Origin: a virus
Length of the DNA stretch: 64,000 nucleotides
IMG/VR virus record: IMGVR_UViG_3300045988_164340
Coordinates: 96,001-160,000 of that record
Strand: one strand, 5' to 3'
The translations under genes and the position numbers were made by a program. The notes beneath the pieces are model-generated. The model saw only the letters and a list, made by a program, of their open reading frames with translations, was not told where the DNA came from and did not search any database. Positions 9,262 through 63,614 of this stretch are shown in pieces (within the stretch, counting starts at the first letter, position 1; each line of letters begins with the position of its first letter).

Positions 9262-9798
9262 ATGTTTACTAAACAGGAATATCTTGAAGAATATAAAAAC
9301 AATAACAAAAAAGCCAACATTACTAAACTTTTTGGCTATATTGAGGAACGTCTTGACCATAATTCCAGTTTAGGCTGTAACGTGGCTCGTTTTGAAAATT
9401 TTCAGCTCAGTCCGACTTTATGGAAAATTCTAACCAATGATAAACAATTTAAAGTGATTTGTAAATGTAGAGGATACGACCTTGCTTTTCAGAAGAATGA
9501 AGATGGTTCTTGGGTTGATATTACCAGCGCCAAAGCAAAAGAAAACGCAGAAATTTGGAATCAGCTTTTTAAAGATAATGATGTAAGTTATTTCTTTAAT
9601 GTTATTATGGGGCGTCTTTTTGCTGTTGGTCGTAAAAAGAACATCAAACATCCTTATTATACTATTCATAAAGATTGCTGTAGTTCTATTGTTTGGGAAT
9701 TGGCAAACAATAAAACTTTTCTTGAAAAGATTGTTGAAAATGGATGGGACTTTGATTGTGGTACTGATTCTATTCCTTATATTCAAATTAAGGGATAA
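9262..9798 (+). CDS. hypothetical protein
   Basis: AAGGAG SD. Confidence 0.65.
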   Translation: MFTKQEYLEEYKNNNKKANITKLFGYIEERLDHNSSLGCNVARFENFQLSPTLWKILTNDKQFKVICKCRGYDLAFQKNEDGSWVDITSAKAKENAEIWNQLFKDNDVSYFFNVIMGRLFAVGRKKNIKHPYYTIHKDCCSSIVWELANNKTFLEKIVENGWDFDCGTDSIPYIQIKG

Positions 9799-9823
9799 TT
9801 AAATAATGTGGATAGGAGAAAAA

Positions 9824-10039
9824 ATGTATATTCCAAAAAGTAATAGATAGATATCTTTACTTCCTTTTACTGGTTGTGATGAAAAGAAATGCCCATGGAA
9901 GGATTGTGTAAGGCATCCTGAAAGTGGATTTACATATAATTCCATGGGACATTTATCTTATCTTTGTAAAAAATTTAAAGAAGTCCCGAAAGAGGTTGAA
10001 GAAACGAAGGAGAAAGAAACAAAGACAAATGATTCTTAA
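9824..10039 (+). CDS. hypothetical protein with in-frame TAG (codon 9)
   Basis: TAGGAG SD, ATG 9824; TAG 9848-9850; frame stays open 62 more codons to TAA 10037. Confidence 0.55.
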
Positions 10040-10385
10040 AATTATTATTAACCTTTGGCGATTTGTTTTTATTCTGGATGTTTTAGTTTTCTTTTATCTT
10101 GTCAGAGAAGTTACAAAATATGTAAACGATTTCTTTGACGCGAGAAATGTTAAGATTAAAGTATCCAGTACTGGTTCTGCAATTCCAATCATTCAAATTC
10201 TTATTCTAAGTGCTCTTCCAATCATTAATATTATTTTAGGTTGGACATGGATATTTAATTACCAAAAATTTATGAAATTAACTTGCATTAAGCTAAATGA
10301 ACATCTTTATAAGATGGGCATCATTTCTGATGAATTAAAAGATGAATTTTATCATAAAGTCATTAAAGATTTTGAAGGGTCTTAA
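10029..10385 (+). CDS. membrane protein
   Basis: ATG 10029 (MILKIIINLW) overlaps upstream stop; TM segments. Confidence 0.55.
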   Translation: MILKIIINLWRFVFILDVLVFFYLVREVTKYVNDFFDARNVKIKVSSTGSAIPIIQILILSALPIINIILGWTWIFNYQKFMKLTCIKLNEHLYKMGIISDELKDEFYHKVIKDFEGS

Positions 10386-10390
10386 TTGAT

Positions 10391-10882
10391 ATGAAAACTG
10401 AAAAAGAAGTAATTCCTGCTCAAGAAAAAACATATTGGGTTGCAGATGACGGTCGTAGATTTTCTACCGAAGAAGAATGTTTCGCTTATGAAAAAAGAGC
10501 AAGTATTCGTGATGTAATGGTTGAGCGCTCCTTCTTGGTTCCTAACCTTTACGAAGATAAAGTAGAGTTTTGGTTTATTTTAGGCGAAGAAGCTACTCCT
10601 ACTTATCTTATTAGTTACCTTGAATATTTTTTAAGAATTTATATTAGCTCTTGGCAAAAAAAGACTTTGGCTCAAGTTTGTTTAGAACAGAAAAAAGACC
10701 AGAAGTATTATCTTATCGGTTTAAAAATTGATAATAACGGAGATAATTCTACTTTTGAAGTTCTTACCATTGATTTCGCAGAAGAAGAAACAAAAGAAGC
10801 CATCACTGATTACGAAAAAATCTTGAAAGAATACTCTGCTCTTAGAGAAAGACTGTCTATTTTTCCTGAAACAAATCAATAA
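10391..10882 (+). CDS. hypothetical protein
   Basis: Track ORF. Confidence 0.6.
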   Translation: MKTEKEVIPAQEKTYWVADDGRRFSTEEECFAYEKRASIRDVMVERSFLVPNLYEDKVEFWFILGEEATPTYLISYLEYFLRIYISSWQKKTLAQVCLEQKKDQKYYLIGLKIDNNGDNSTFEVLTIDFAEEETKEAITDYEKILKEYSALRERLSIFPETNQ

Positions 10883-44560: not shown

Positions 44561-44803
44561 AGAGTTAAGAGACCCGTAACCTCTCAACTCTGTGTATTAT
44601 GTTTTAGTTTCCTTATAGCTCAAGGAAACCAGTTAACACTATTACATAGTAATAAATGTTAAATTTGTAGTTTATTTGTTTTATTTTCTACATGGTCTTT
44701 CATCTCCTTTCTTCCTTAAGACAAGGGTTTCATTTATATGAACAGTTTACGGGGCTGGAGTTTTAGATAGGAACAGGGTCACTCCTGTTCCTTTTCTTTT
44801 TCT
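44561..44803 (+). ncRNA. antisense RNA of module 1 (about 240 nt)
   Basis: 5' hairpin 44557-44595; covers micro-ORF and SD; terminator ggaacagg / cctgttcc 44770-44791 then T-run. Confidence 0.5.
44613..44693 (-). CDS. micro-ORF M*KIKQINYKFNIYYYVIVLTGFLEL (TAG codon 2)
   Basis: AAAGGAGA SD, ATG TAG; paralog of 53459-53539. Confidence 0.5.
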
Positions 44804-53339: not shown

Positions 53340-53458
53340 GGCTTTCAACTCCTTTCCTCCTTAGACAAGGGGCAATTATATAACAGTTTATAGGAACTGG
53401 TTATATCGAGCTAAAGAGAATTGCCTATACAATCCTCTTTAGGAATTAATTTAAGTTA

Positions 53459-53539: not shown

Positions 53540-53615
53540 AGACATTCTCCTTTCCATTTAGCGTTAATATATAAACAGTTTATAGGAACTGAATATATCA
53601 AAATAGAGCAGGATT

Positions 53616-57122: not shown

Positions 57123-57228
57123 AGTTTGGCTCCTTTCCGTTTTAACGTCTTGAACGTGACGTAAATTTATTGAGCTTAAAGGCTCATTGAAGTGCAGGAT
57201 ATATTTCAATCCTGCACTCTATCAACCT

Positions 57229-57435
57229 TTACGGCTTTTCAATCAGGTCTTTTATTTGAGCTCTTAAACAAATTAGAGTGCCGATTCTTGTGCAACAATA
57301 ACTAATATCTGCATTGTTACCTTGGGACTTAGCTTCTTTTGCATTTTCAATTTCAATGTCCGTTGCTTGTAACAGTTCATATGCTGCTTGCTTGAGGAAA
57401 TAGTCTGCTCTACCCTGATGGGTTTTGTTATTCAT
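57229..57435 (-). CDS. small helical protein, paralog A
   Basis: DISYCCTRIGTLICLRAQIKDLIEK. Confidence 0.55.
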   Translation of the reverse strand: MNNKTHQGRADYFLKQAAYELLQATDIEIENAKEAKSQGNNADISYCCTRIGTLICLRAQIKDLIEKP

Positions 57436-58223: not shown

Positions 58224-58252
58224 TTGACAAGTGTTATCATTTGTGTTATATT
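58224..58252 (+). promoter_or_regulatory. plus-strand antisense promoter (module 4)
   Basis: TTGACA, 17 nt, TATATT. Confidence 0.65.
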
Positions 58253-59465: not shown

Positions 59466-59494
59466 TTGACAGATATTATCAAGTGTGCTAAGAT
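59466..59494 (+). promoter_or_regulatory. plus-strand antisense promoter (module 5)
   Basis: TTGACA, 17 nt, TAAGAT. Confidence 0.6.
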
Positions 59495-59500
59495 AAACAC

Positions 59501-59755
59501 AAGTAGAAAGCCTACACTCTCTACTTGTGACGCAATTAAGTGGGATTAATTACGATTGTAAATGATAAAGACTATTATTATGGACCAATAATAGTCAACT
59601 GCTAAGATTTTCTACATAGCAAAGCTCCTTTCTAATTTAATAATACATTAATTCATTGTAGGCTGAATTAATGTGCGAGTGAATAAGTTGGGCTTAAACA
59701 CTCTATTGAGGGATGGAAGTTATTTTCCATCCCTCTAACAATGTTTAAACTTTTT
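59501..59755 (+). ncRNA. antisense RNA of module 5
   Basis: 5' hairpin 59500-59529; ends at conserved element 59693-59750 followed by T5. Confidence 0.4.
59546..59617 (-). CDS. micro-ORF M*KILAVDYYWSIIIVFIIYNRN
   Basis: AAAGGAGC SD, ATG TAG. Confidence 0.5.
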
Positions 59756-59939
59756 CAACTTTGTATGGCCTGCAAGTAACAATATCGAAATTGTTTACAA
59801 GCCATTCAGGTTTGGTTTTTTTAGTATTGAGGAATTTGCAAACAATGTTTGCAAGCACTTCACTGTTAAATACAGTTTTTTCCTTCATACTCATTGTGAC
59901 TGTTACGGATTTTCCGTATTTGTTTACAATCTTAAACAT
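59745..59939 (-). CDS. 64-aa hypothetical protein
   Basis: ATG at 59939 after CGGAGGTG. Confidence 0.55.
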   Translation of the reverse strand: MFKIVNKYGKSVTVTMSMKEKTVFNSEVLANIVCKFLNTKKTKPEWLVNNFDIVTCRPYKVEKV

Positions 59940-60246
59940 GCCACACCTCCGTTTTAACACCTTTGCCATTGTAATAACGACGAGCACCATAATTGGCTCT
60001 ATCACTAAAACATTCAGCACAAGGAATTAATTCCTTACGCTTTCCCTCTTTGATTTCCTTGAGTGAAAGGTTGAAGCACTGCTCAACCTCGCATTTTTCA
60101 CACGTCTTACAGGATTTACCCTTGCAGATATTTTCGCAGAAGTTGTTTTTAACTTTGCAGAGATGCTTAACACCCCAAGAGGAATTCATCTCAGCTAAAG
60201 TCTGGTCGAGAGTGTAATTACGACCCATAACACTAATCTTTTTCAT
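59932..60246 (-). CDS. Cys-rich protein
   Basis: CKGKSCKTCEKCEVEQC. Confidence 0.6.
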   Translation of the reverse strand: MKKISVMGRNYTLDQTLAEMNSSWGVKHLCKVKNNFCENICKGKSCKTCEKCEVEQCFNLSLKEIKEGKRKELIPCAECFSDRANYGARRYYNGKGVKTEVWHV

Positions 60247-60309
60247 TTTACTTTGACTCCTTTCAAGTCTGTATTAAATTTGATTTTGAATTTGTCTTAA
60301 ACTATATGG

Positions 60310-60642
60310 TTAAAAACAAACACGTTTCTTTTTGATTTTGGTAAGCATCCAACACCAAGGATTTCCAAAATCATCTTCAAGAGGAGTAACCTTAATGGTT
60401 ACAAGCACCTCAGTACTGAGATGTTCAAGCACATATTCGAGATTTTTAAGAGAGAAAACATATCTCTCTTTTGTATCATCTTTGGTACTTTTTGCGCACC
60501 ATTTGATGATTTCTTTCAAACTTGAATCAATCAAGCAGTTCAAATTCCCATACGTATCAAGCGCTCTACTAAGAGAAGGCGCTTCTAAATAAGTAGGGTT
60601 GTTTGTAATGGAGCGAATATTGTTTTTCATTTTCTTAGACAT
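60310..60642 (-). CDS. hypothetical protein
   Basis: Track ORF. Confidence 0.6.
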   Translation of the reverse strand: MSKKMKNNIRSITNNPTYLEAPSLSRALDTYGNLNCLIDSSLKEIIKWCAKSTKDDTKERYVFSLKNLEYVLEHLSTEVLVTIKVTPLEDDFGNPWCWMLTKIKKKRVCF

Positions 60643-60679
60643 GACTTTAATTCCTTTCTTTTGTCAAATTGATTAATAC

Positions 60680-60871
60680 TTATACTTGCTTGAGATATTT
60701 AAGGTTTAACTCTAATTTGGAATCCATGATTAAACCCTTTTCTCTTTTGATGCGACCTCTGAGATTATTCAGCGCTTGTTTCTCAGAAGAGGCCATTGTG
60801 TAACCAGAATAATGACAATAATAGTCATGCCATCTGGTTACTGGGCCCTCATAATAATATTTGAGCTTCAT
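60680..60871 (-). CDS. hypothetical protein
   Basis: Track ORF. Confidence 0.55.
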   Translation of the reverse strand: MKLKYYYEGPVTRWHDYYCHYSGYTMASSEKQALNNLRGRIKREKGLIMDSKLELNLKYLKQV

Positions 60872-60888
60872 ATATACCTCCTTTCAAC

Positions 60889-61134
60889 TCAAATAAACTC
60901 TGAGACTTTACCCTCTTCATGGACATAGCCTCCAAGAACTTCAGGACATGACTGGAAATAACCAGACGCATCCTGAATGTGTACGAGAATGGTATCATCC
61001 ATATTCAATGAGCCATTTCGTACTTTCATTCTGAGAGAATTGCGAATTCGTTTCCAAATTTCGCTTCTTTCTTCGAATACATCATAGATGACTTTGCCAT
61101 CTTTTTTGATGTATCCTTTGTACCATCTTGTCAT
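60889..61134 (-). CDS. hypothetical protein
   Basis: Track ORF. Confidence 0.55.
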   Translation of the reverse strand: MTRWYKGYIKKDGKVIYDVFEERSEIWKRIRNSLRMKVRNGSLNMDDTILVHIQDASGYFQSCPEVLGGYVHEEGKVSEFI

Positions 61135-61595
61135 TTGTTTTCACCCCCTTTCTCATGATTCAGGGCAGCTCTTCTTAATTCATCCTGAGAATTATAATAC
61201 TGCTCAAAAGCATCACAACCTTCCCAAGAAATTTTAGATTGAAGCTTTGCAAGCTTTTCAGAGACTTCTGCCAAGTTTTTTTGTGCCTCTTCAAGAGCAG
61301 ATTCCTGTAATGCAATATATGTATCCATTGCAACATTCTTTGCCATAAGAATGGCAGTGAATTCATCTTTGAAGTAACCTTCATAATGTTGAGGCATAAT
61401 ATGTGTTTTCATTTCATTAAAGGTGCTTTCGCGGATGAATTGTTCTCTCAATTCGCCTGAAGCTAGAAAATATACAGGATTTTCATTAGTATTATGAATA
61501 TTCTGAATTTTGTACACTACCATGGTGTTCATGGTAGTAGGCTGACGGTAAATCACGGTATATACATACCCATCTAACGTTGTAATCTTTTTCAT
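61131..61595 (-). CDS. hypothetical protein
   Basis: ATG at 61595 after AGAAAGGAAAA. Confidence 0.55.
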   Translation of the reverse strand: MKKITTLDGYVYTVIYRQPTTMNTMVVYKIQNIHNTNENPVYFLASGELREQFIRESTFNEMKTHIMPQHYEGYFKDEFTAILMAKNVAMDTYIALQESALEEAQKNLAEVSEKLAKLQSKISWEGCDAFEQYYNSQDELRRAALNHEKGGENK

Positions 61596-61623
61596 TTCTT
61601 TTTTCCTTTCTGCTCTTTTGAGC

Positions 61624-61652
61624 TTGACAAATCTTTGTTTGTGTGTTATACT
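61624..61652 (+). promoter_or_regulatory. plus-strand antisense promoter (module 6)
   Basis: TTGACA, 17 nt, TATACT. Confidence 0.65.
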
Positions 61653-61658
61653 TGCTAT

Positions 61659-62010
61659 TGTAATAAGAAAAGTGGTTGACCAATCCACTCTTCTTATTAA
61701 ATTGATTAGTCTAAGTCTAACTTAGATATATCTATCTGGAAGAATTCAATCAGCTATTCAACACTTAGGTGTTGCATATACCAATTAAACTCAAATTCAG
61801 AAGTGATATACTACTTCAGAATAGAACCAATCTTTGCTTTATTACTAAAACTATCCTACATGAATTCCTCCTTTCTTTTAACTTGTTAGTGCTGGTGACT
61901 AACTTGTTATTCATTATCTTATTGGTCAGATAAGATAGAGAGCTTATTCCCATTAAGCACTCTATGAAGGGTAGGAGCATATGTTCCTGCCCTTTAACAA
62001 TGCTTAACCG
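61659..62010 (+). ncRNA. antisense RNA of module 6 (3' end uncertain)
   Basis: 5' hairpin 61660-61698; conserved element 61953-62007. Confidence 0.35.
61706..61861 (-). CDS. 51-residue ORF starting ATG-TAG with two more TAG codons
   Basis: AAAGGAGG SD; M*DSFSNKAKIGSILK*YITSEFEFNWYMQHLSVE*LIEFFQIDISKLDLD. Confidence 0.4.
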
Positions 62011-62339
62011 ATGTAACGTTCCTTGAGAGAACGTGCTTCCATAATGAAAGATTCAAAATCTTCGTTGGAAGTAATTTGTATTCTTTTTTCTTTGATTGGT
62101 CTAGCTATCATATTAAGTTTAGATAGTGTGTATTCACAATACAACTTTATATAATAAGTTGTGTTGTTTTCATTTAACACTCTATCAGGAGAGACATATA
62201 CGTGAAGCCAATAATCTTTCCCAAAGTGTGACTGAGCAAATGCTCCTCTATCTTCCCACTGAGCGAATACTTCAGTATCTTCCCAAGGTTTTGCAATACC
62301 AACTAACATATTGCAGATATCATGGACGGCTAATTTCAT
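62004..62339 (-). CDS. hypothetical protein
   Basis: Track ORF. Confidence 0.6.
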   Translation of the reverse strand: MKLAVHDICNMLVGIAKPWEDTEVFAQWEDRGAFAQSHFGKDYWLHVYVSPDRVLNENNTTYYIKLYCEYTLSKLNMIARPIKEKRIQITSNEDFESFIMEARSLKERYIG

Positions 62340-62366
62340 TTTCTTTGATTCCTTTCTATTAAACCA

Positions 62367-62395
62367 TTGACAAGTACAACTTTATATGTTATACT
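62367..62395 (+). promoter_or_regulatory. plus-strand antisense promoter (module 7)
   Basis: TTGACA, 17 nt, TATACT. Confidence 0.65.
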
Positions 62396-62401
62396 TATTA
62401 T

Positions 62402-62628
62402 TAGAATAAGAGAAGTGCCTACACACCTCTCTTATTAATGAGCTTTTATTCTTCTTAGAAGTTATAGTTCTTTAGAATTACAACTACAACGACGTTTAAA
62501 GAATAATCGACTGAAATAATCTTCTTCATTATTTATTACCTCCTTAAGAAGATAAAAGCAAACAAGAATGTAGGTCCTTATTTACTACAGAGGAGAGATA
62601 GGGGGATATCTCTCCTTCTGTTATGTTT
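62402..62628 (+). ncRNA. antisense RNA of module 7 (about 225 nt)
   Basis: 5' hairpin 62405-62436; terminator ggagagata / tatctctcc 62592-62615 then T-rich. Confidence 0.5.
62455..62529 (-). CDS. micro-ORF MKKIISVDYSLNVVVVVILKNYNF (AAG at codon 2)
   Basis: AAGGAGG SD; synonymous divergence from 63184 and 63396 copies. Confidence 0.6.
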   Translation of the reverse strand: MKKIISVDYSLNVVVVVILKNYNF

Positions 62629-62660
62629 GAGTAGTTTAACGACTTGCTCAGGTCGAGGAG

Positions 62661-63062
62661 TTAGTTCTGATAATCGTCACTTACCAGAACCCATTCTTCT
62701 CCATTACCATCAATGAGATGAATTGTTGTTCCATCTTCACCGATAGTAACTGACTGAAGATTACTAAACCAATTTTCAGTAGTGGTATAGGCTTCTTCAG
62801 TGCCTTTGTCGTAACCAGCGTTGTATGCGCCAGTTACGTCTTCATTAGTGCAGACCTCTGCGGGAGTGCTCTTACTGTAATCAATGTTACAGATAAGAGT
62901 AATGATGCTAATGGCAAGAATAGTCATGATAATGAACATGGCACGAGGATTCATGCTCTTCTTATGCACGATTGCTTCGATATTAATGATAACACCGTAT
63001 ACAATCATGATAATCATGATAGCCACGGCAATGATAACAATAGAATTCATGGTAATAAACAT
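62661..63062 (-). CDS. membrane protein
   Basis: GAAAGGAAA SD; two TM segments. Confidence 0.6.
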   Translation of the reverse strand: MFITMNSIVIIAVAIMIIMIVYGVIINIEAIVHKKSMNPRAMFIIMTILAISIITLICNIDYSKSTPAEVCTNEDVTGAYNAGYDKGTEEAYTTTENWFSNLQSVTIGEDGTTIHLIDGNGEEWVLVSDDYQN

Positions 63063-63095
63063 CTTTATTTCCTTTCTGGTTTTAGTGTCTTTTCC

Positions 63096-63124
63096 TTGAC
63101 AATAGTTGTTTGGTGTGTTATAAT
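63096..63124 (+). promoter_or_regulatory. plus-strand antisense promoter (modules 8 and 9)
   Basis: TTGACA, 17 nt, TATAAT with TGTGT. Confidence 0.7.
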
Positions 63125-63183
63125 GTTTTTAATAAGAGAAGCACCTATATACTTCTCTTATCTGTGTATCTTATTACACTTTA

Positions 63184-63258
63184 TTAGAAGTTGTAATTCT
63201 TAAGGATGATTACTACAACCACATTAAAAGTGTAATTGACAAATGTTATCTTCTACAT
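63184..63258 (-). CDS. micro-ORF M*KITFVNYTFNVVVVIILKNYNF
   Basis: AAAGGAGG SD, ATG TAG. Confidence 0.55.
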
Positions 63259-63395
63259 TTATTTACCTCCTTTAGAAGATAGAAGTATTTAATTGTATAG
63301 GCAACTAAATACTGAGAGCTTATTGCGACTAAGCACTCTATAAGATAGAGGAAGATATTTCTACCTTCCTCTATCCTAACAATGCTCAGTTATGC

Positions 63396-63470
63396 TCAGA
63401 AGTTATAATTCTTCAGTATCGCAACTGTTACAACATTAAGAGCATAATTTACGGAAATTATTTTCTACAT
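63396..63470 (-). CDS. micro-ORF M*KIISVNYALNVVTVAILKNYNF
   Basis: AAAGGAGG SD, ATG TAG. Confidence 0.55.
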
Positions 63471-63614
63471 GGTAATTTCCTCCTTTCCGAGTGCGATTTG
63501 GATTACTAAGCACTCTATTAAGCCCAGTATCAACTCCTTTTGGGGCGGATATTGGGCTTTAACAATGCTTAGGTATTGAGCAGTTTATTGTCATACTCAG
63601 GACAAAAGAGTGGA

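What the first reader, a model, noticed from the sequence alone, without database searches (positions are those of the whole stretch)
59693..63571. Conserved bipartite element CTAAGCACTCTAT-[variable hairpin]-TAACAATGCTTAG with covarying inner stem
Four copies exist: 59693-59750, 61953-62007, 63329-63389 and 63505-63571. They share nearly identical flanks (cttaaacactctat...taacaatgtttaaac; ttaagcactctat...taacaatgcttaa; ctaagcactctat...taacaatgctcag; ctaagcactctat...taacaatgcttag). The outer bases pair (CTAAGCA with TGCTTAG). The flanks enclose hairpins of unrelated sequence that each still pair perfectly: gagggatggaa/ttccatccctc, agggtaggagcat/atgttcctgccct, gatagaggaag/cttcctctatc, aagcccagtatc/gatattgggctt. 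Conserved internal-loop sequences plus a covarying stem indicate a selected RNA or ssDNA structure. The element sits just 3' of a minus-strand gene. In two copies (59745 and 62004) the right arm contains that gene's TAA stop. It also lies upstream of the micro-ORF SD. Three other modules carry a different conserved core, ACAGTTTAYRGGRMCTG, at 44741, 53380 and 53572. Possible roles: protein-binding or processing site, non-canonical terminator/antiterminator, or phage-polymerase signal.
Basis: seen in the sequence. Interest (0 to 1): 0.62.

Follow-up and report, generated by a model that had tools for sequence, protein, structure and literature searches.

The report
Conserved RNA hairpin between phage genes
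A 55-75-base hairpin with an invariant, slightly imperfect core sits between genes of this gut phage and of several unrelated phages. It matches no catalogued RNA family and most likely marks where the long phage messenger RNA is cut and stabilised.

Summary
The four copies are real. They are the only full copies in the 216-kb phage genome. The element belongs to a wider family: about 80 distinct copies in some 30 phage contigs from at least four unrelated lineages. One phage has eight copies in 5 kb.

Covariation is strong. In 56 distinct copies, 92.7% of cells pair and 20 of 24 pairs show compensatory changes.

On that strand the "internal loop" is mostly paired: A-U, U.G, U-A, G.G mismatch, U-A, bulged U, U-A. 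The result is one irregular helix of 20-32 bp.

Two features are new:
- The upstream gene's stop codon usually lies inside the 5' arm.
- The 3' half can instead pair with a CUCUA-type segment just downstream, forming an alternative hairpin.

The element matches no Rfam family. It is not an intrinsic terminator, a promoter or an attC site. The carrier phages share no protein.

My best reading (confidence about 0.4) is an intercistronic double-stranded RNA processing and stability signal of the RNase III type. Function is inferred.

The parts
63502..63574 (-). Element copy W4. On the minus strand: CCUAAGCA-UUGUUA-[inner stem-loop]-AAUAGAG-UGCUUAG.
   Evidence: Covariance model hit, 64.1 bits. 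Minus-strand fold -30.1 kcal/mol, z -6.8.
63325..63391 (-). Element copy W3.
   Evidence: Covariance model hit, 61.8 bits. Minus-strand fold -38.1 kcal/mol, z -8.0.
61949..62009 (-). Element copy W2. The TAA stop of ORF 62004..62339(-) lies in its 5' arm.
   Evidence: Covariance model hit, 64.6 bits. ORF list. Fold -25.2 kcal/mol, z -5.4.
59690..59750 (-). Element copy W1. The TAA stop of ORF 59745..60020(-) lies in its 5' arm.
   Evidence: Covariance model hit, 64.7 bits. ORF list. Fold -30.5 kcal/mol, z -8.0.
63489..63515 (-). Alternative hairpin of W4: GAGUGC (the 3' half of the element) pairs with GCACUC just before the Shine-Dalgarno sequence.
   Evidence: It is the minimum-energy fold once the 5' arm is blocked. 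-8.1 kcal/mol against -4.6 for shuffles.
63314..63340 (-). Alternative hairpin of W3: GAG-u-GCUUA pairs with UAAGC-u-CUC.
   Evidence: -9.0 against -4.5 kcal/mol.
61935..61965 (-). Alternative hairpin of W2: AUAGAG-u-GCUUA pairs with UAAGC-u-CUCUAU, 11 of 12 positions paired.
   Evidence: Read from the sequence. The relatives L041 and L044 give -12.8 and -13.2 kcal/mol, z -4.4 to -4.6.
59677..59703 (-). Alternative hairpin of W1: GAGUG pairs with CACUC, with an inner UUAAG/CUUAU stem.
   Evidence: -9.9 against -3.0 kcal/mol, z -3.4.
63396..63470 (-). Micro-ORF after W4 (ATG TAG AAA ATA ...; 24 codons). Context, not part of the element.
   Evidence: Synonymous differences among the paralogues show it is coding.
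63184..63258 (-). Micro-ORF after W3 (ATG TAG AAG ATA ...; 24 codons). Context.
61706..61861 (-). Micro-ORF after W2 (ATG TAG GAT ...; 51 codons if TAG is read as sense). Context.
   Evidence: In relative L158 the internal TAG is CAG.
59546..59617 (-). Micro-ORF after W1 (ATG TAG AAA ATC ...; 23 codons). Context.
57174..57232 (-). Weak partial relative: AUAGAGUGC followed by a 10-bp hairpin. It has the alternative-hairpin half only.
   Evidence: Covariance model hit, 28.6 bits, E 1e-5. Sequence.

Best explanation
The element is an RNA structure on the gene-sense strand of polycistronic early or accessory-gene transcripts.

Structure. It folds into one long irregular helix of 20-32 bp:
- a covarying outer stem;
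- a near-invariant core, 5'-AUUGUUA-3' opposite 5'-UAUAGAGU-3', containing a U.G pair, a G.G mismatch and a bulged U;
- a free-sequence inner stem-loop.

Proposed mechanism. It works as intercistronic punctuation. A double-strand-specific endoribonuclease, most likely the host's RNase III, cuts at or near the irregular core. The upstream cistron keeps the inner hairpin as a 3' shield against exonucleases. The freed 3' half (UAGAGUGCUUA...) snaps onto the CUCUA-type segment just downstream. That gives the downstream cistron a 5'-terminal hairpin that shields it from 5' exonucleases.

Because the arms are conserved, they also act as short homology patches. Gene modules are swapped between phages at these patches.

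Shown: the structure, the strand, the family, the position relative to genes, the alternative hairpin and the mosaic joints.

Inferred: that it acts as RNA, that it is cleaved, which enzyme cleaves it, and the protective roles of the two hairpins.
For: Structure and strand.
- In the MAFFT alignment of 26 copies, 94.3% of cells pair (shuffles 67.7%, slid partners 32-46%) and 17 of 19 pairs show double changes.
- In 56 distinct copies, 92.7% of cells pair and 20 of 24 pairs are compensatory. This includes core pair 13:87, which changes U-A to C-G.
- G.U cells on the gene-sense strand number 35, against 13 A.C cells.

Orientation.
- Every copy inspected lies in the same sense as its flanking genes, between a stop codon and the next Shine-Dalgarno sequence and start codon.
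- This is repeated in 24 new metagenome copies: the longest upstream frame is on the same strand in 18 of 24.

Co-transcription.
- Contig L079 has 8 copies in 5 kb. The next start lies only 35-39 nt after the core, which leaves no room for a promoter.

Helix length.
- The helix is always at least about 20 bp: inner stem 8-17 bp, plus 5 core pairs, plus 7-10 outer pairs. This is the size RNase III needs (established knowledge).
- The irregularity sits at a fixed place, as in the T7 R1.1-type sites that are nicked on one strand only (from my own knowledge).

Alternative hairpin.
- It is present in 33 of 37 distinct copies, at -8.2 against -3.6 kcal/mol for shuffles. Different lineages build it in different ways.
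- It starts exactly at the bulged U and mismatched G of the core. A cut there would leave it 5'-terminal.
- It becomes the minimum-energy fold whenever the 5' arm is unavailable.

No dedicated phage protein.
- No protein family is shared by 3 or more of the 4 carrier lineages. This fits a host enzyme.
- B. subtilis RNase III is described as a narrow-specificity enzyme that cuts phage SP82 early RNA (PMC4838370).

Host.
- The carrier phages look like phages of Firmicutes. They use GGAGG Shine-Dalgarno sequences and sigma-A-type promoters. The G003 large terminase is 46% identical to those of Clostridium perfringens phages.
Against: - No RNA ends, cleavage or transcription data exist.
- RNase III is not known to need a specific 7-8-nt sequence. 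The near-invariance of AUUGUUA/UAUAGAGU across unrelated phages is therefore more than this model requires, and points to a sequence-specific reader.
- The stop codon is placed inside the 5' arm in more than half of the copies. A stop triplet survives there in 52 of 56 copies. A pure processing model does not explain this.
- In the window itself, two copies (W2, W4) fold slightly better on the + strand.
- The copies are not phylogenetically independent. Alignment A2 was fitted to the model's structure.
Confidence: 0.4

Rival explanations
1. Translation-termination-gated RNA switch. The upstream gene's stop codon lies in the 5' arm. A terminating ribosome therefore melts the outer stem and core but leaves the inner hairpin at the mouth of the mRNA channel. 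The freed 3' half then flips into the alternative hairpin. The element would report whether the upstream cistron is being translated, and would set the fate of the downstream RNA (decay, processing or re-initiation).
For: - The stop codon ends 1-2 nt before AUUGUUA in 23 of 41 copies and in 9 of 24 new copies.
- A stop triplet is kept in the 5' arm in 52 of 56 copies, as TAA, TGA or TAG, with the partner arm covarying.
- The inner stem begins about 9-11 nt after the stop codon, just beyond a ribosome footprint (sequence).
- Blocking the first 16 nt makes the alternative hairpin the minimum-energy fold in nearly all copies.
Against: - About 40% of copies have the real stop 16-55 nt upstream, out of reach of a terminating ribosome.
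- The predicted accessibility of the next gene's Shine-Dalgarno sequence and AUG does not change between the two states: 0.60 against 0.63 over 39 copies. No output is visible.
- The complementary 3' arm also holds a stop triplet in 36 of 56 copies, so the background for AT-rich arms is high.
Confidence: 0.2
2. Operator for a sequence-specific RNA-binding protein, host- or phage-encoded. Examples would be a translational repressor, an early-gene shut-off factor or an antiterminator. The protein would read the invariant U.G / G.G / bulged-U core.
For: - The core is near-invariant in 56 distinct copies while everything around it covaries.
- Purine-purine mismatches next to a bulged U are classic protein or peptide docking sites, such as the Rev response element and TAR (from my own knowledge).
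- Copies cluster in blocks of small early or accessory genes, which suggests coordinate control.
Against: - No protein family is shared by 3 or more of the 4 carrier lineages.
- No candidate gene is linked to the arrays.
- The element was not found in 151 sampled Bacillota genomes, nor in bacterial chromosomes in the species-level scan. A host protein would thus have no known cellular target of this sequence.
Confidence: 0.15
3. DNA-level recombination joint. The conserved arms, possibly with the hairpin extruded in single-stranded DNA, exist mainly to let gene cassettes be exchanged between phages. This would resemble the PeSL cassettes of T4-type phages or integron attC sites.
For: - Among relatives of the window phage, the same downstream module is joined to three different upstream genes, and to two different inner hairpins, exactly at the arms (W3, L037, L044, L060).
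- ORF-then-element arrays with the stop codon in the site look like integron cassette arrays.
- The family is patchy across unrelated phages.
- Tyrosine recombinases occur in all three complete carrier genomes.
Against: - Breakpoints fall in either arm. The hairpin travels with the upstream gene in one case and with the downstream gene in another. That fits ordinary homologous exchange, not a fixed crossover point.
- The three recombinases are unrelated to each other and do not lie next to the arrays.
- The arms do not match the attC cores RYYYAAC/GTTRRRY.
- The coding strand folds best, not the bottom strand.
- Recombination alone does not explain the compensatory changes in the inner stem, nor the alternative hairpin.
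Confidence: 0.1
4. Transcription signal. Either a non-canonical terminator (for the sense operon, or for the + strand antisense RNAs of this phage), or a T7/SP6/K11-like promoter on the + strand. The + strand reads GCACTCTATAG; the K11 promoter reads GCACACTATAG.
For: - In the window the element occupies the place where other micro-ORF modules have a canonical terminator followed by a TATAAT-like box, or a plain hairpin (62590-62617).
- The + strand sigma-A-type promoters at 63096, 61624 and 59466 fire towards W3, W2 and W1.
- The + strand core matches the K11 promoter at 10 of 11 positions and resembles the SP6 promoter (recalled from memory).
Against: - There is no U-tract. None of the four copies is listed by the terminator scan.
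- Eight copies in a row have about 25 nt to the next Shine-Dalgarno sequence, so read-through must happen.
- The putative promoter points antisense to every flanking gene in every phage.
- A promoter cannot explain the outer-stem covariation.
- No T7-type polymerase gene was found in five carrier records (that search had no positive control).
- Most carrier phages show no + strand promoter nearby.
Confidence: 0.07
5. A new small self-cleaving ribozyme, with the invariant core as its active site.
For: - The core is invariant, has non-canonical pairs, and is flanked by helices of free sequence.
- Its position between phage cistrons is like that of several known phage ribozymes (from my own knowledge).
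- It matches no known family.
Against: - It is a single, nearly continuous helix. Apical loops vary from 3 to 8 nt and more, so no conserved tertiary contact or pseudoknot is available.
- All known natural self-cleavers need more architecture than this (from my own knowledge).
Confidence: 0.03

Closest known systems
RNase III processing signals between early genes of phage T7 (R0.3, R0.5, R1, R1.1, R1.3) and the Bs-RNase III sites in phage SP82 early RNA
   Same: - Hairpins of about 50-75 nt lie between cistrons of a polycistronic early transcript, in the sense orientation.
- There are two helical segments separated by a conserved irregularity, more than 20 bp in all, in several copies per genome that resemble each other.
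- In T7 the cut leaves a 3' hairpin on the upstream RNA (from my own knowledge; the SP82 sites are cited in PMC4838370).
   Different: - No sequence likeness was shown.
- The core here is near-invariant across unrelated phage lineages, not only within one phage group.
- The stop codon is embedded in the 5' arm.
- A conserved second conformation uses the 3' half.
- Cleavage is untested.
PeSL cassettes (promoter-early stem-loop) of T4-type phages (PMC2839356, PMC4122927)
   Same: - They are short conserved intergenic motifs containing a stem-loop of variable sequence.
- They are concentrated in plastic regions of small accessory genes.
- They lie at the joints where related phages differ by gene insertion or replacement.
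   Different: - A PeSL is a stem-loop followed by a sigma-70 promoter (TTGACA-N17-TATAAT).
- Here no promoter lies in or after the element on the gene strand.
- Here conserved blocks flank the stem on both sides and pair with each other.
Integron attC sites
   Same: - The architecture is a conserved paired outer box, a small imperfect central part with an extra-helical base, and a variable terminal stem-loop.
- One site follows each small ORF in an array, often overlapping its stop codon.
   Different: - The arms are not RYYYAAC/GTTRRRY.
- There is no integron integrase.
- The coding strand folds best, not the bottom strand.
- The central part is invariant in sequence, whereas in attC it is conserved only in shape.
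REP/BIME and Correia (NEMIS) elements of bacteria
   Same: They are short intergenic palindromes that are co-transcribed with genes, placed just after stop codons, and act on mRNA stability. NEMIS hairpins are cut by RNase III (from my own knowledge).
   Different: - Those are whole-sequence repeats spread by transposition in bacterial chromosomes.
- Here only the flanks are conserved and each inner stem is unique.
- The carriers here are phages only.

Membership tests
RNase III intercistronic processing signal (T7 R-sites, SP82 sites) | Double-stranded RNA helix of about two turns (20 bp or more). | tested here: met
   Outer stem 7-10 bp, plus 5 core pairs, plus inner stem 8-17 bp.
RNase III intercistronic processing signal (T7 R-sites, SP82 sites) | Lies between cistrons of one transcript, in the sense orientation. 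| tested here: met
   All inspected copies lie between a stop codon and the next Shine-Dalgarno sequence and ATG on the gene strand. L079 has arrays with about 25 nt to the next Shine-Dalgarno sequence. Transcription itself was not observed.
RNase III intercistronic processing signal (T7 R-sites, SP82 sites) | Cleaved by RNase III in vivo or in vitro. | not testable with these tools
No carrier phage is cultured.
PeSL cassette | Stem-loop directly followed by a sigma-70-type early promoter on the gene strand. | tested here: not met
   The promoter scan lists no minus-strand site at or after the four copies. The conserved 3' block carries no -35/-10 pair. In L079 there is no room before the Shine-Dalgarno sequence.
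PeSL cassette | Marks insertion or replacement joints between related phages. | tested here: met
   The contexts of W3, L037, L044 and L060 differ on one side of an arm and agree on the other.
Integron attC | R''/R' core sites RYYYAAC ... GTTRRRY. | tested here: not met
   The consensus arms are yTAAGCA ... TGCTTAr.
Integron attC | An integron-type tyrosine recombinase next to the array. | tested here: not met
   The Phage_integrase hits in G000, G003 and G004 are mutually unrelated and lie far from the arrays. None was found in G001 or G002.
Integron attC | The bottom (non-coding) strand is the folded, recombined strand. | tested here: not met
   There are 35 G.U cells on the coding strand against 13 on the other.
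Intrinsic (Rho-independent) terminator | G+C-rich hairpin immediately followed by a U-tract. | tested here: not met
   None of the four copies appears in the terminator scan. The tail is UAUAGAGUGCUUA.
Any Rfam 15 family | Score at or near a family's gathering threshold. | tested here: not met
   There were no hits at gathering thresholds over the whole window. At E up to 10 only a chance miRNA-type hit overlaps a copy: 24 bits, against the 86 needed.
T7/SP6/K11-type single-subunit RNA polymerase promoter | A 23-bp promoter pointing into the genes it serves, and a cognate polymerase gene in the phage. | tested here: not met
   The likeness is on the strand antisense to all flanking genes. PF00940 was not found in five carrier records, but that search had no positive control.

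The most novel reading that the evidence does not exclude
The element is a ribosome-operated, two-state RNA device. With no ribosome on the embedded stop codon, it is one long helix and a target for a double-strand nuclease. Each terminating ribosome opens the 5' arm. The 3' half then re-pairs downstream, turning the junction into two short protective hairpins. The survival of each cistron's RNA in a phage operon would then be tied directly to translation of the gene before it. The same portable module would be shared by unrelated phages.
Probability: 0.15. Interest if true: 0.8.

Novelty: new variant of a known kind. Interest (0 to 1): 0.64.

Why it matters
- Structured RNA signals between phage genes are well known only for a few model phages, such as the T7 RNase III sites and the T4 PeSLs.
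- This is an uncatalogued motif with unusually clean covariation. It has an invariant non-canonical core, a built-in second conformation and an embedded stop codon.
- It is shared by unrelated gut and anaerobe phages, including a TAG-recoded jumbo phage.
- If it is a processing and stability signal, it gives a handle on how uncultured Firmicutes-type phages shape their early transcripts. It would also be a compact, portable part for separating cistrons in synthetic operons.
- If the stop-codon coupling is functional, it would be a new way of linking mRNA fate to translation.
- It also marks the points at which these phages exchange accessory genes.

Tried and rejected
Searches that found nothing useful:
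- Rfam at gathering and at permissive thresholds: nothing.
- Full-text search for the sequence words: only chance primer and miRNA matches.
- blastn of the region against GenBank phages: no match.
- Two human-faecal phage records related to carrier proteins: no copy.
- Element in bacterial genomes: the only hits were two phage-like contigs binned in Bacteroidales MAGs. None was found in 151 sampled Bacillota genomes.

Readings considered and dropped:
- Shine-Dalgarno-sequestering translational coupling. The predicted accessibility of the next Shine-Dalgarno sequence and AUG is the same with the 5' arm free or blocked, 0.60 against 0.63.
- Pseudoknot instead of an alternative fold. In several lineages the linker between the 3' arm and CUCUA is only 1-5 nt, too short to span the outer stem (sequence).
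- K-turn, loop E, boxA (the + strand CUCUAACAA against rrn boxA) and an SPO1 late promoter. I considered these by eye. I dropped them for the wrong strand, the wrong spacing or missing G.A pairs.
- Dedicated partner protein. All-against-all blastp and phmmer of five carrier genomes found no family in 3 or more lineages.
- Phage-encoded RNase III: none.
- T7-type polymerase: none, but the search had no positive control.
- Integron-like recombinase: only generic, mutually unrelated integrases.
- MITE or REP-type repeat: rejected because the inner stems share no sequence, even within one genome.

Full report
**Observation.**
The exact bipartite pattern occurs three times in the window, against 0.01 expected by chance. 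Allowing up to three substitutions per arm gives exactly four copies in the whole genome, all on the + strand: window 59694-59748, 61953-62007, 63329-63389 and 63506-63572. The window is bases 96001-160000 of a 216,183-bp IMG/VR phage record with direct terminal repeats and 33% G+C. The genes of this block are on the minus strand. Each copy folds far better than shuffles on either strand, with z from -5.0 to -8.0.

**A family, not a local duplication.**
A scan of IMG/VR with the two conserved blocks returned many chance hits and a clear set of true ones. Some are in relatives of this phage (contigs of 150-220 kb). Others are in contigs that share no genes with it: L012/L033, L022, L026, L035, L079, L088 and L106.

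- A MAFFT alignment of 26 copies in gene-sense orientation (A1) gave 94.3% paired cells. Column shuffles gave 67.7%, and sliding the partner by 1-3 columns gave 32-46%. Seventeen of 19 pairs showed changes on both sides.
- A covariance model built from A1 finds only the four copies plus one weak partial match (57174-57232, 28.6 bits) in the phage's own genome.
- In other records the model finds:
  - 7 copies in G001 (the L079 contig; 8 copies within its first 5.9 kb at the laxer threshold);
  - 6 in G003, a complete 57-kb phage;
  - 2 in G002;
  - 1 in G004;
  - 2 in G005.
- It also finds 52 matches in 47 metagenome loci.
- On 56 distinct copies, 92.7% of cells pair and 20 of 24 pairs show compensatory changes. 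Caveat: that alignment was fitted to the model.
- The family is nevertheless rare. The commonest subtype occurs in about ten of 2.9 million IMG/VR contigs.
- In 185,579 species genomes it occurs only in two phage-like contigs binned in Bacteroidales MAGs. It was not found in 151 sampled Bacillota genomes.

**Strand and true shape.**
Read in gene sense, the element is 5'-yUAAGCA-UUGUUA-[stem-loop]-nAUAGAG-UGCUUAr-3'.

- Wobble pairs favour this strand: 35 G.U cells against 13 A.C cells.
- On this strand the supposed internal loop pairs: A-U, U.G, U-A, G.G mismatch, U-A, bulged U, U-A, and A-U in half of the copies.
- Pair 13:87 changes from U-A to C-G in three copies. The U.G pair becomes U-A in two.
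- The whole is one irregular helix. The outer stem is 7-10 bp, the core has 5 pairs and the inner stem is 8-17 bp.
- In the window alone the strand cannot be decided. W2 and W4 fold slightly better on the + strand.

**Position relative to genes.**
- The longest upstream frame ends 1-2 nt before AUUGUUA, that is, inside the 5' arm, in 23 of 41 copies. The same holds in 9 of 24 new, distinct metagenome copies.
- A stop triplet is present in the 5' arm in 52 of 56 copies. It varies among TAA, TGA and TAG while the partner arm covaries. The complementary arm has a stop triplet in 36 of 56, so the background is high.
- The next Shine-Dalgarno sequence and ATG follow 31-200 nt after the core. In G001 and G003 the distance is 35-39 nt. 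That leaves no room for a promoter, so the L079 array must be read through.

**A second conformation.**
- A segment complementary to the 3' half of the element begins 0-15 nt after the 3' arm. It is CUCUA in the short form and UAAGCnCUCUAU in W2.
- The resulting hairpin is present in 33 of 37 distinct copies. Its mean energy is -8.2 kcal/mol, against -3.6 for shuffles of the downstream part. It is present again in 18 of 24 new copies.
- Different lineages build it differently. G001, G003, L022 and G002 use a 5-7-bp stem with a 4-6-nt loop. The jumbo-phage clade uses a composite stem.
- It uses the bulged U and the mismatched G as ordinary Watson-Crick partners. It becomes the minimum-energy fold whenever the first 16 nt are made unavailable.
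- It excludes the outer stem. In several lineages the linker is too short for a pseudoknot.
- The predicted accessibility of the next ribosome-binding site does not differ between the two states: 0.60 against 0.63.

**What it is not.**
- It matches no Rfam family.
- It is not an intrinsic terminator. There is no U-tract, and none of the copies is listed by the terminator scan.
- There is no sigma-70-type promoter on the gene strand at the copies.
- On the + strand the motif resembles K11- and SP6-type promoters (GCACTCTATAG against GCACACTATAG, recalled from memory). That orientation is antisense to all genes, it cannot explain the outer-stem covariation, and no T7-type polymerase gene was found (no positive control).
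- The arms do not match attC cores.
- Tyrosine recombinases occur in the three complete carrier genomes. They are mutually unrelated and not adjacent to the arrays.
- None of the carriers encodes an RNase III.
- All-against-all comparisons of five carrier genomes show that G002 is a distant relative of the window phage. Otherwise no protein family is shared by three of the four lineages.

**Mosaic joints.**
Among relatives of the window phage, the same downstream module (the micro-ORF of W3) is joined to three different upstream genes. The inner hairpin stays with the upstream side in one comparison (L037 against L060) and with the downstream side in another (L044 against L060). Exchange therefore happens in either conserved arm. 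This is what short homology would give. It is what PeSL motifs do in T4-type phages (PMC4122927). It does not look like a fixed site-specific crossover.

**Mechanism.**
The best-supported reading is an RNA signal that punctuates polycistronic early or accessory transcripts.

- The size, the position, the sense orientation and the fixed irregularity fit the RNase III sites of T7 early RNA (my own knowledge). They also fit the SP82 sites cut by the narrow-specificity RNase III of B. subtilis (PMC4838370).
- A cut at the core would leave the inner hairpin on the 3' end of the upstream RNA. It would place the alternative hairpin at the very 5' end of the downstream RNA. In Firmicutes that position protects against RNase J1 (my own knowledge).
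- A host enzyme would explain why unrelated phages can share the signal without sharing a protein.
- The carriers look like phages of Firmicutes. They use GGAGG ribosome-binding sites and TTGACA-17-TATAAT promoters. The G003 large terminase is 46% identical to those of Clostridium perfringens phages and 54% identical to that of a human-faecal phage.

The model leaves two things unexplained: the near-invariance of the 7-8-nt core and the embedded stop codon. These keep two rivals alive, a sequence-specific binding protein and a switch worked by the terminating ribosome. I put the processing model at about 0.4. The broader statement, a gene-sense RNA structure acting after transcription, I put at about 0.7.

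**Surroundings in the window.**
- On the minus strand, each copy is followed by a Shine-Dalgarno sequence and a micro-ORF that starts ATG TAG. Synonymous differences among the paralogues show that the micro-ORFs are coding.
- The phage reads TAG as sense in many late genes. The longest frame grows from 919 to 3,864 codons when TAG is read as sense.
- In relative L158, an internal TAG of the 61.8-kb micro-ORF is CAG.
- Near-consensus promoters on the + strand (63096, 62367, 61624, 59466) fire antisense through the micro-ORFs and the elements. This gives a layout like a type I toxin-antitoxin pair.
- Other micro-ORF modules of the same phage have something else where the element sits. Some have a canonical terminator followed by CAGTTCCTATAAACTG and a TATAAT-like box. 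One has a plain hairpin at 62590-62617.
- These features are specific to the jumbo-phage clade. In G001, G003, G004 and others, the element precedes ordinary genes.

**Limits.**
- No transcript, RNA end or cleavage was observed.
- The copies are related by descent and by exchange, so the counts and p-values overstate independence.
- The comparisons with T7, SP82, RRE/TAR and K11/SP6 rest on my own knowledge, except where a paper is cited.

Noticed in passing
window 63396-63470, 63184-63258, 61706-61861, 59546-59617 (all minus strand); also 62464-62538: Conserved micro-ORFs with a strong Shine-Dalgarno sequence whose second codon is TAG (AAG in the 62.5-kb copy). Synonymous changes show they are coding. 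In relative contig L158, an internal TAG of the 61.8-kb micro-ORF is CAG, so TAG is read as Gln on the early strand too. A micro-ORF that is 'start-stop' under the standard code and a peptide under the recoded one could sense the code switch.
   Followed up: partly
window 63096-63124, 62367-62395, 61624-61652, 59466-59494, 58224-58252 (+ strand): Near-perfect TTGACA-17-TATAAT promoters, mostly with an extended TG. Each is followed by a 5' hairpin and points against all flanking genes, antisense through the micro-ORFs and the elements. The layout resembles a type I toxin-antitoxin pair.
   Followed up: partly
G000 whole genome (tRNA cluster at genome 69-83 kb, outside the window): ARAGORN in several settings finds 15 tRNAs and none with anticodon CTA. 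TAG is nevertheless clearly sense in late genes. I could not reproduce that.
   Followed up: partly
window 53383-53399, 53575-53591, 44742-44758: A second junction type sits before other ATG-TAG micro-ORFs. On the minus strand it consists of a canonical terminator hairpin with a U-tract, then the inverted repeat CAGTTCCTATAAACTG, then a TATAAT-like box. It occupies the place that the bipartite element holds in the 59-63-kb modules.
   Followed up: partly
window 62590-62617: In the module whose micro-ORF starts ATG AAG, the bipartite element is replaced by a plain 11-bp hairpin (GAGGAGAGATA/TATCTCTCCTT).
   Followed up: no
window 57174-57232 (minus strand): AUAGAGUGC followed directly by a 10-bp hairpin (AGUGCAGGAU/AUCCUGCACU). 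It looks like the alternative-hairpin half of the element without the 5' half.
   Followed up: no
G001 (contig of L079), 9406-10665: The 27-kb phage fragment that has eight element copies also encodes a 419-aa TnpB-like protein (RuvC-like motifs and a C-terminal zinc ribbon), about 4 kb from the array.
   Followed up: no
G002 (contig of L081/L135): This 71-kb fragment is a distant relative of the window phage (proteins 25-64% identical). It also appears to read TAG as sense: the longest frame grows from 1,351 to 2,589 codons. Near-identical DNA is binned in a Bacteroidales MAG. That conflicts with the Firmicutes-like Shine-Dalgarno sequences and promoters.
   Followed up: partly
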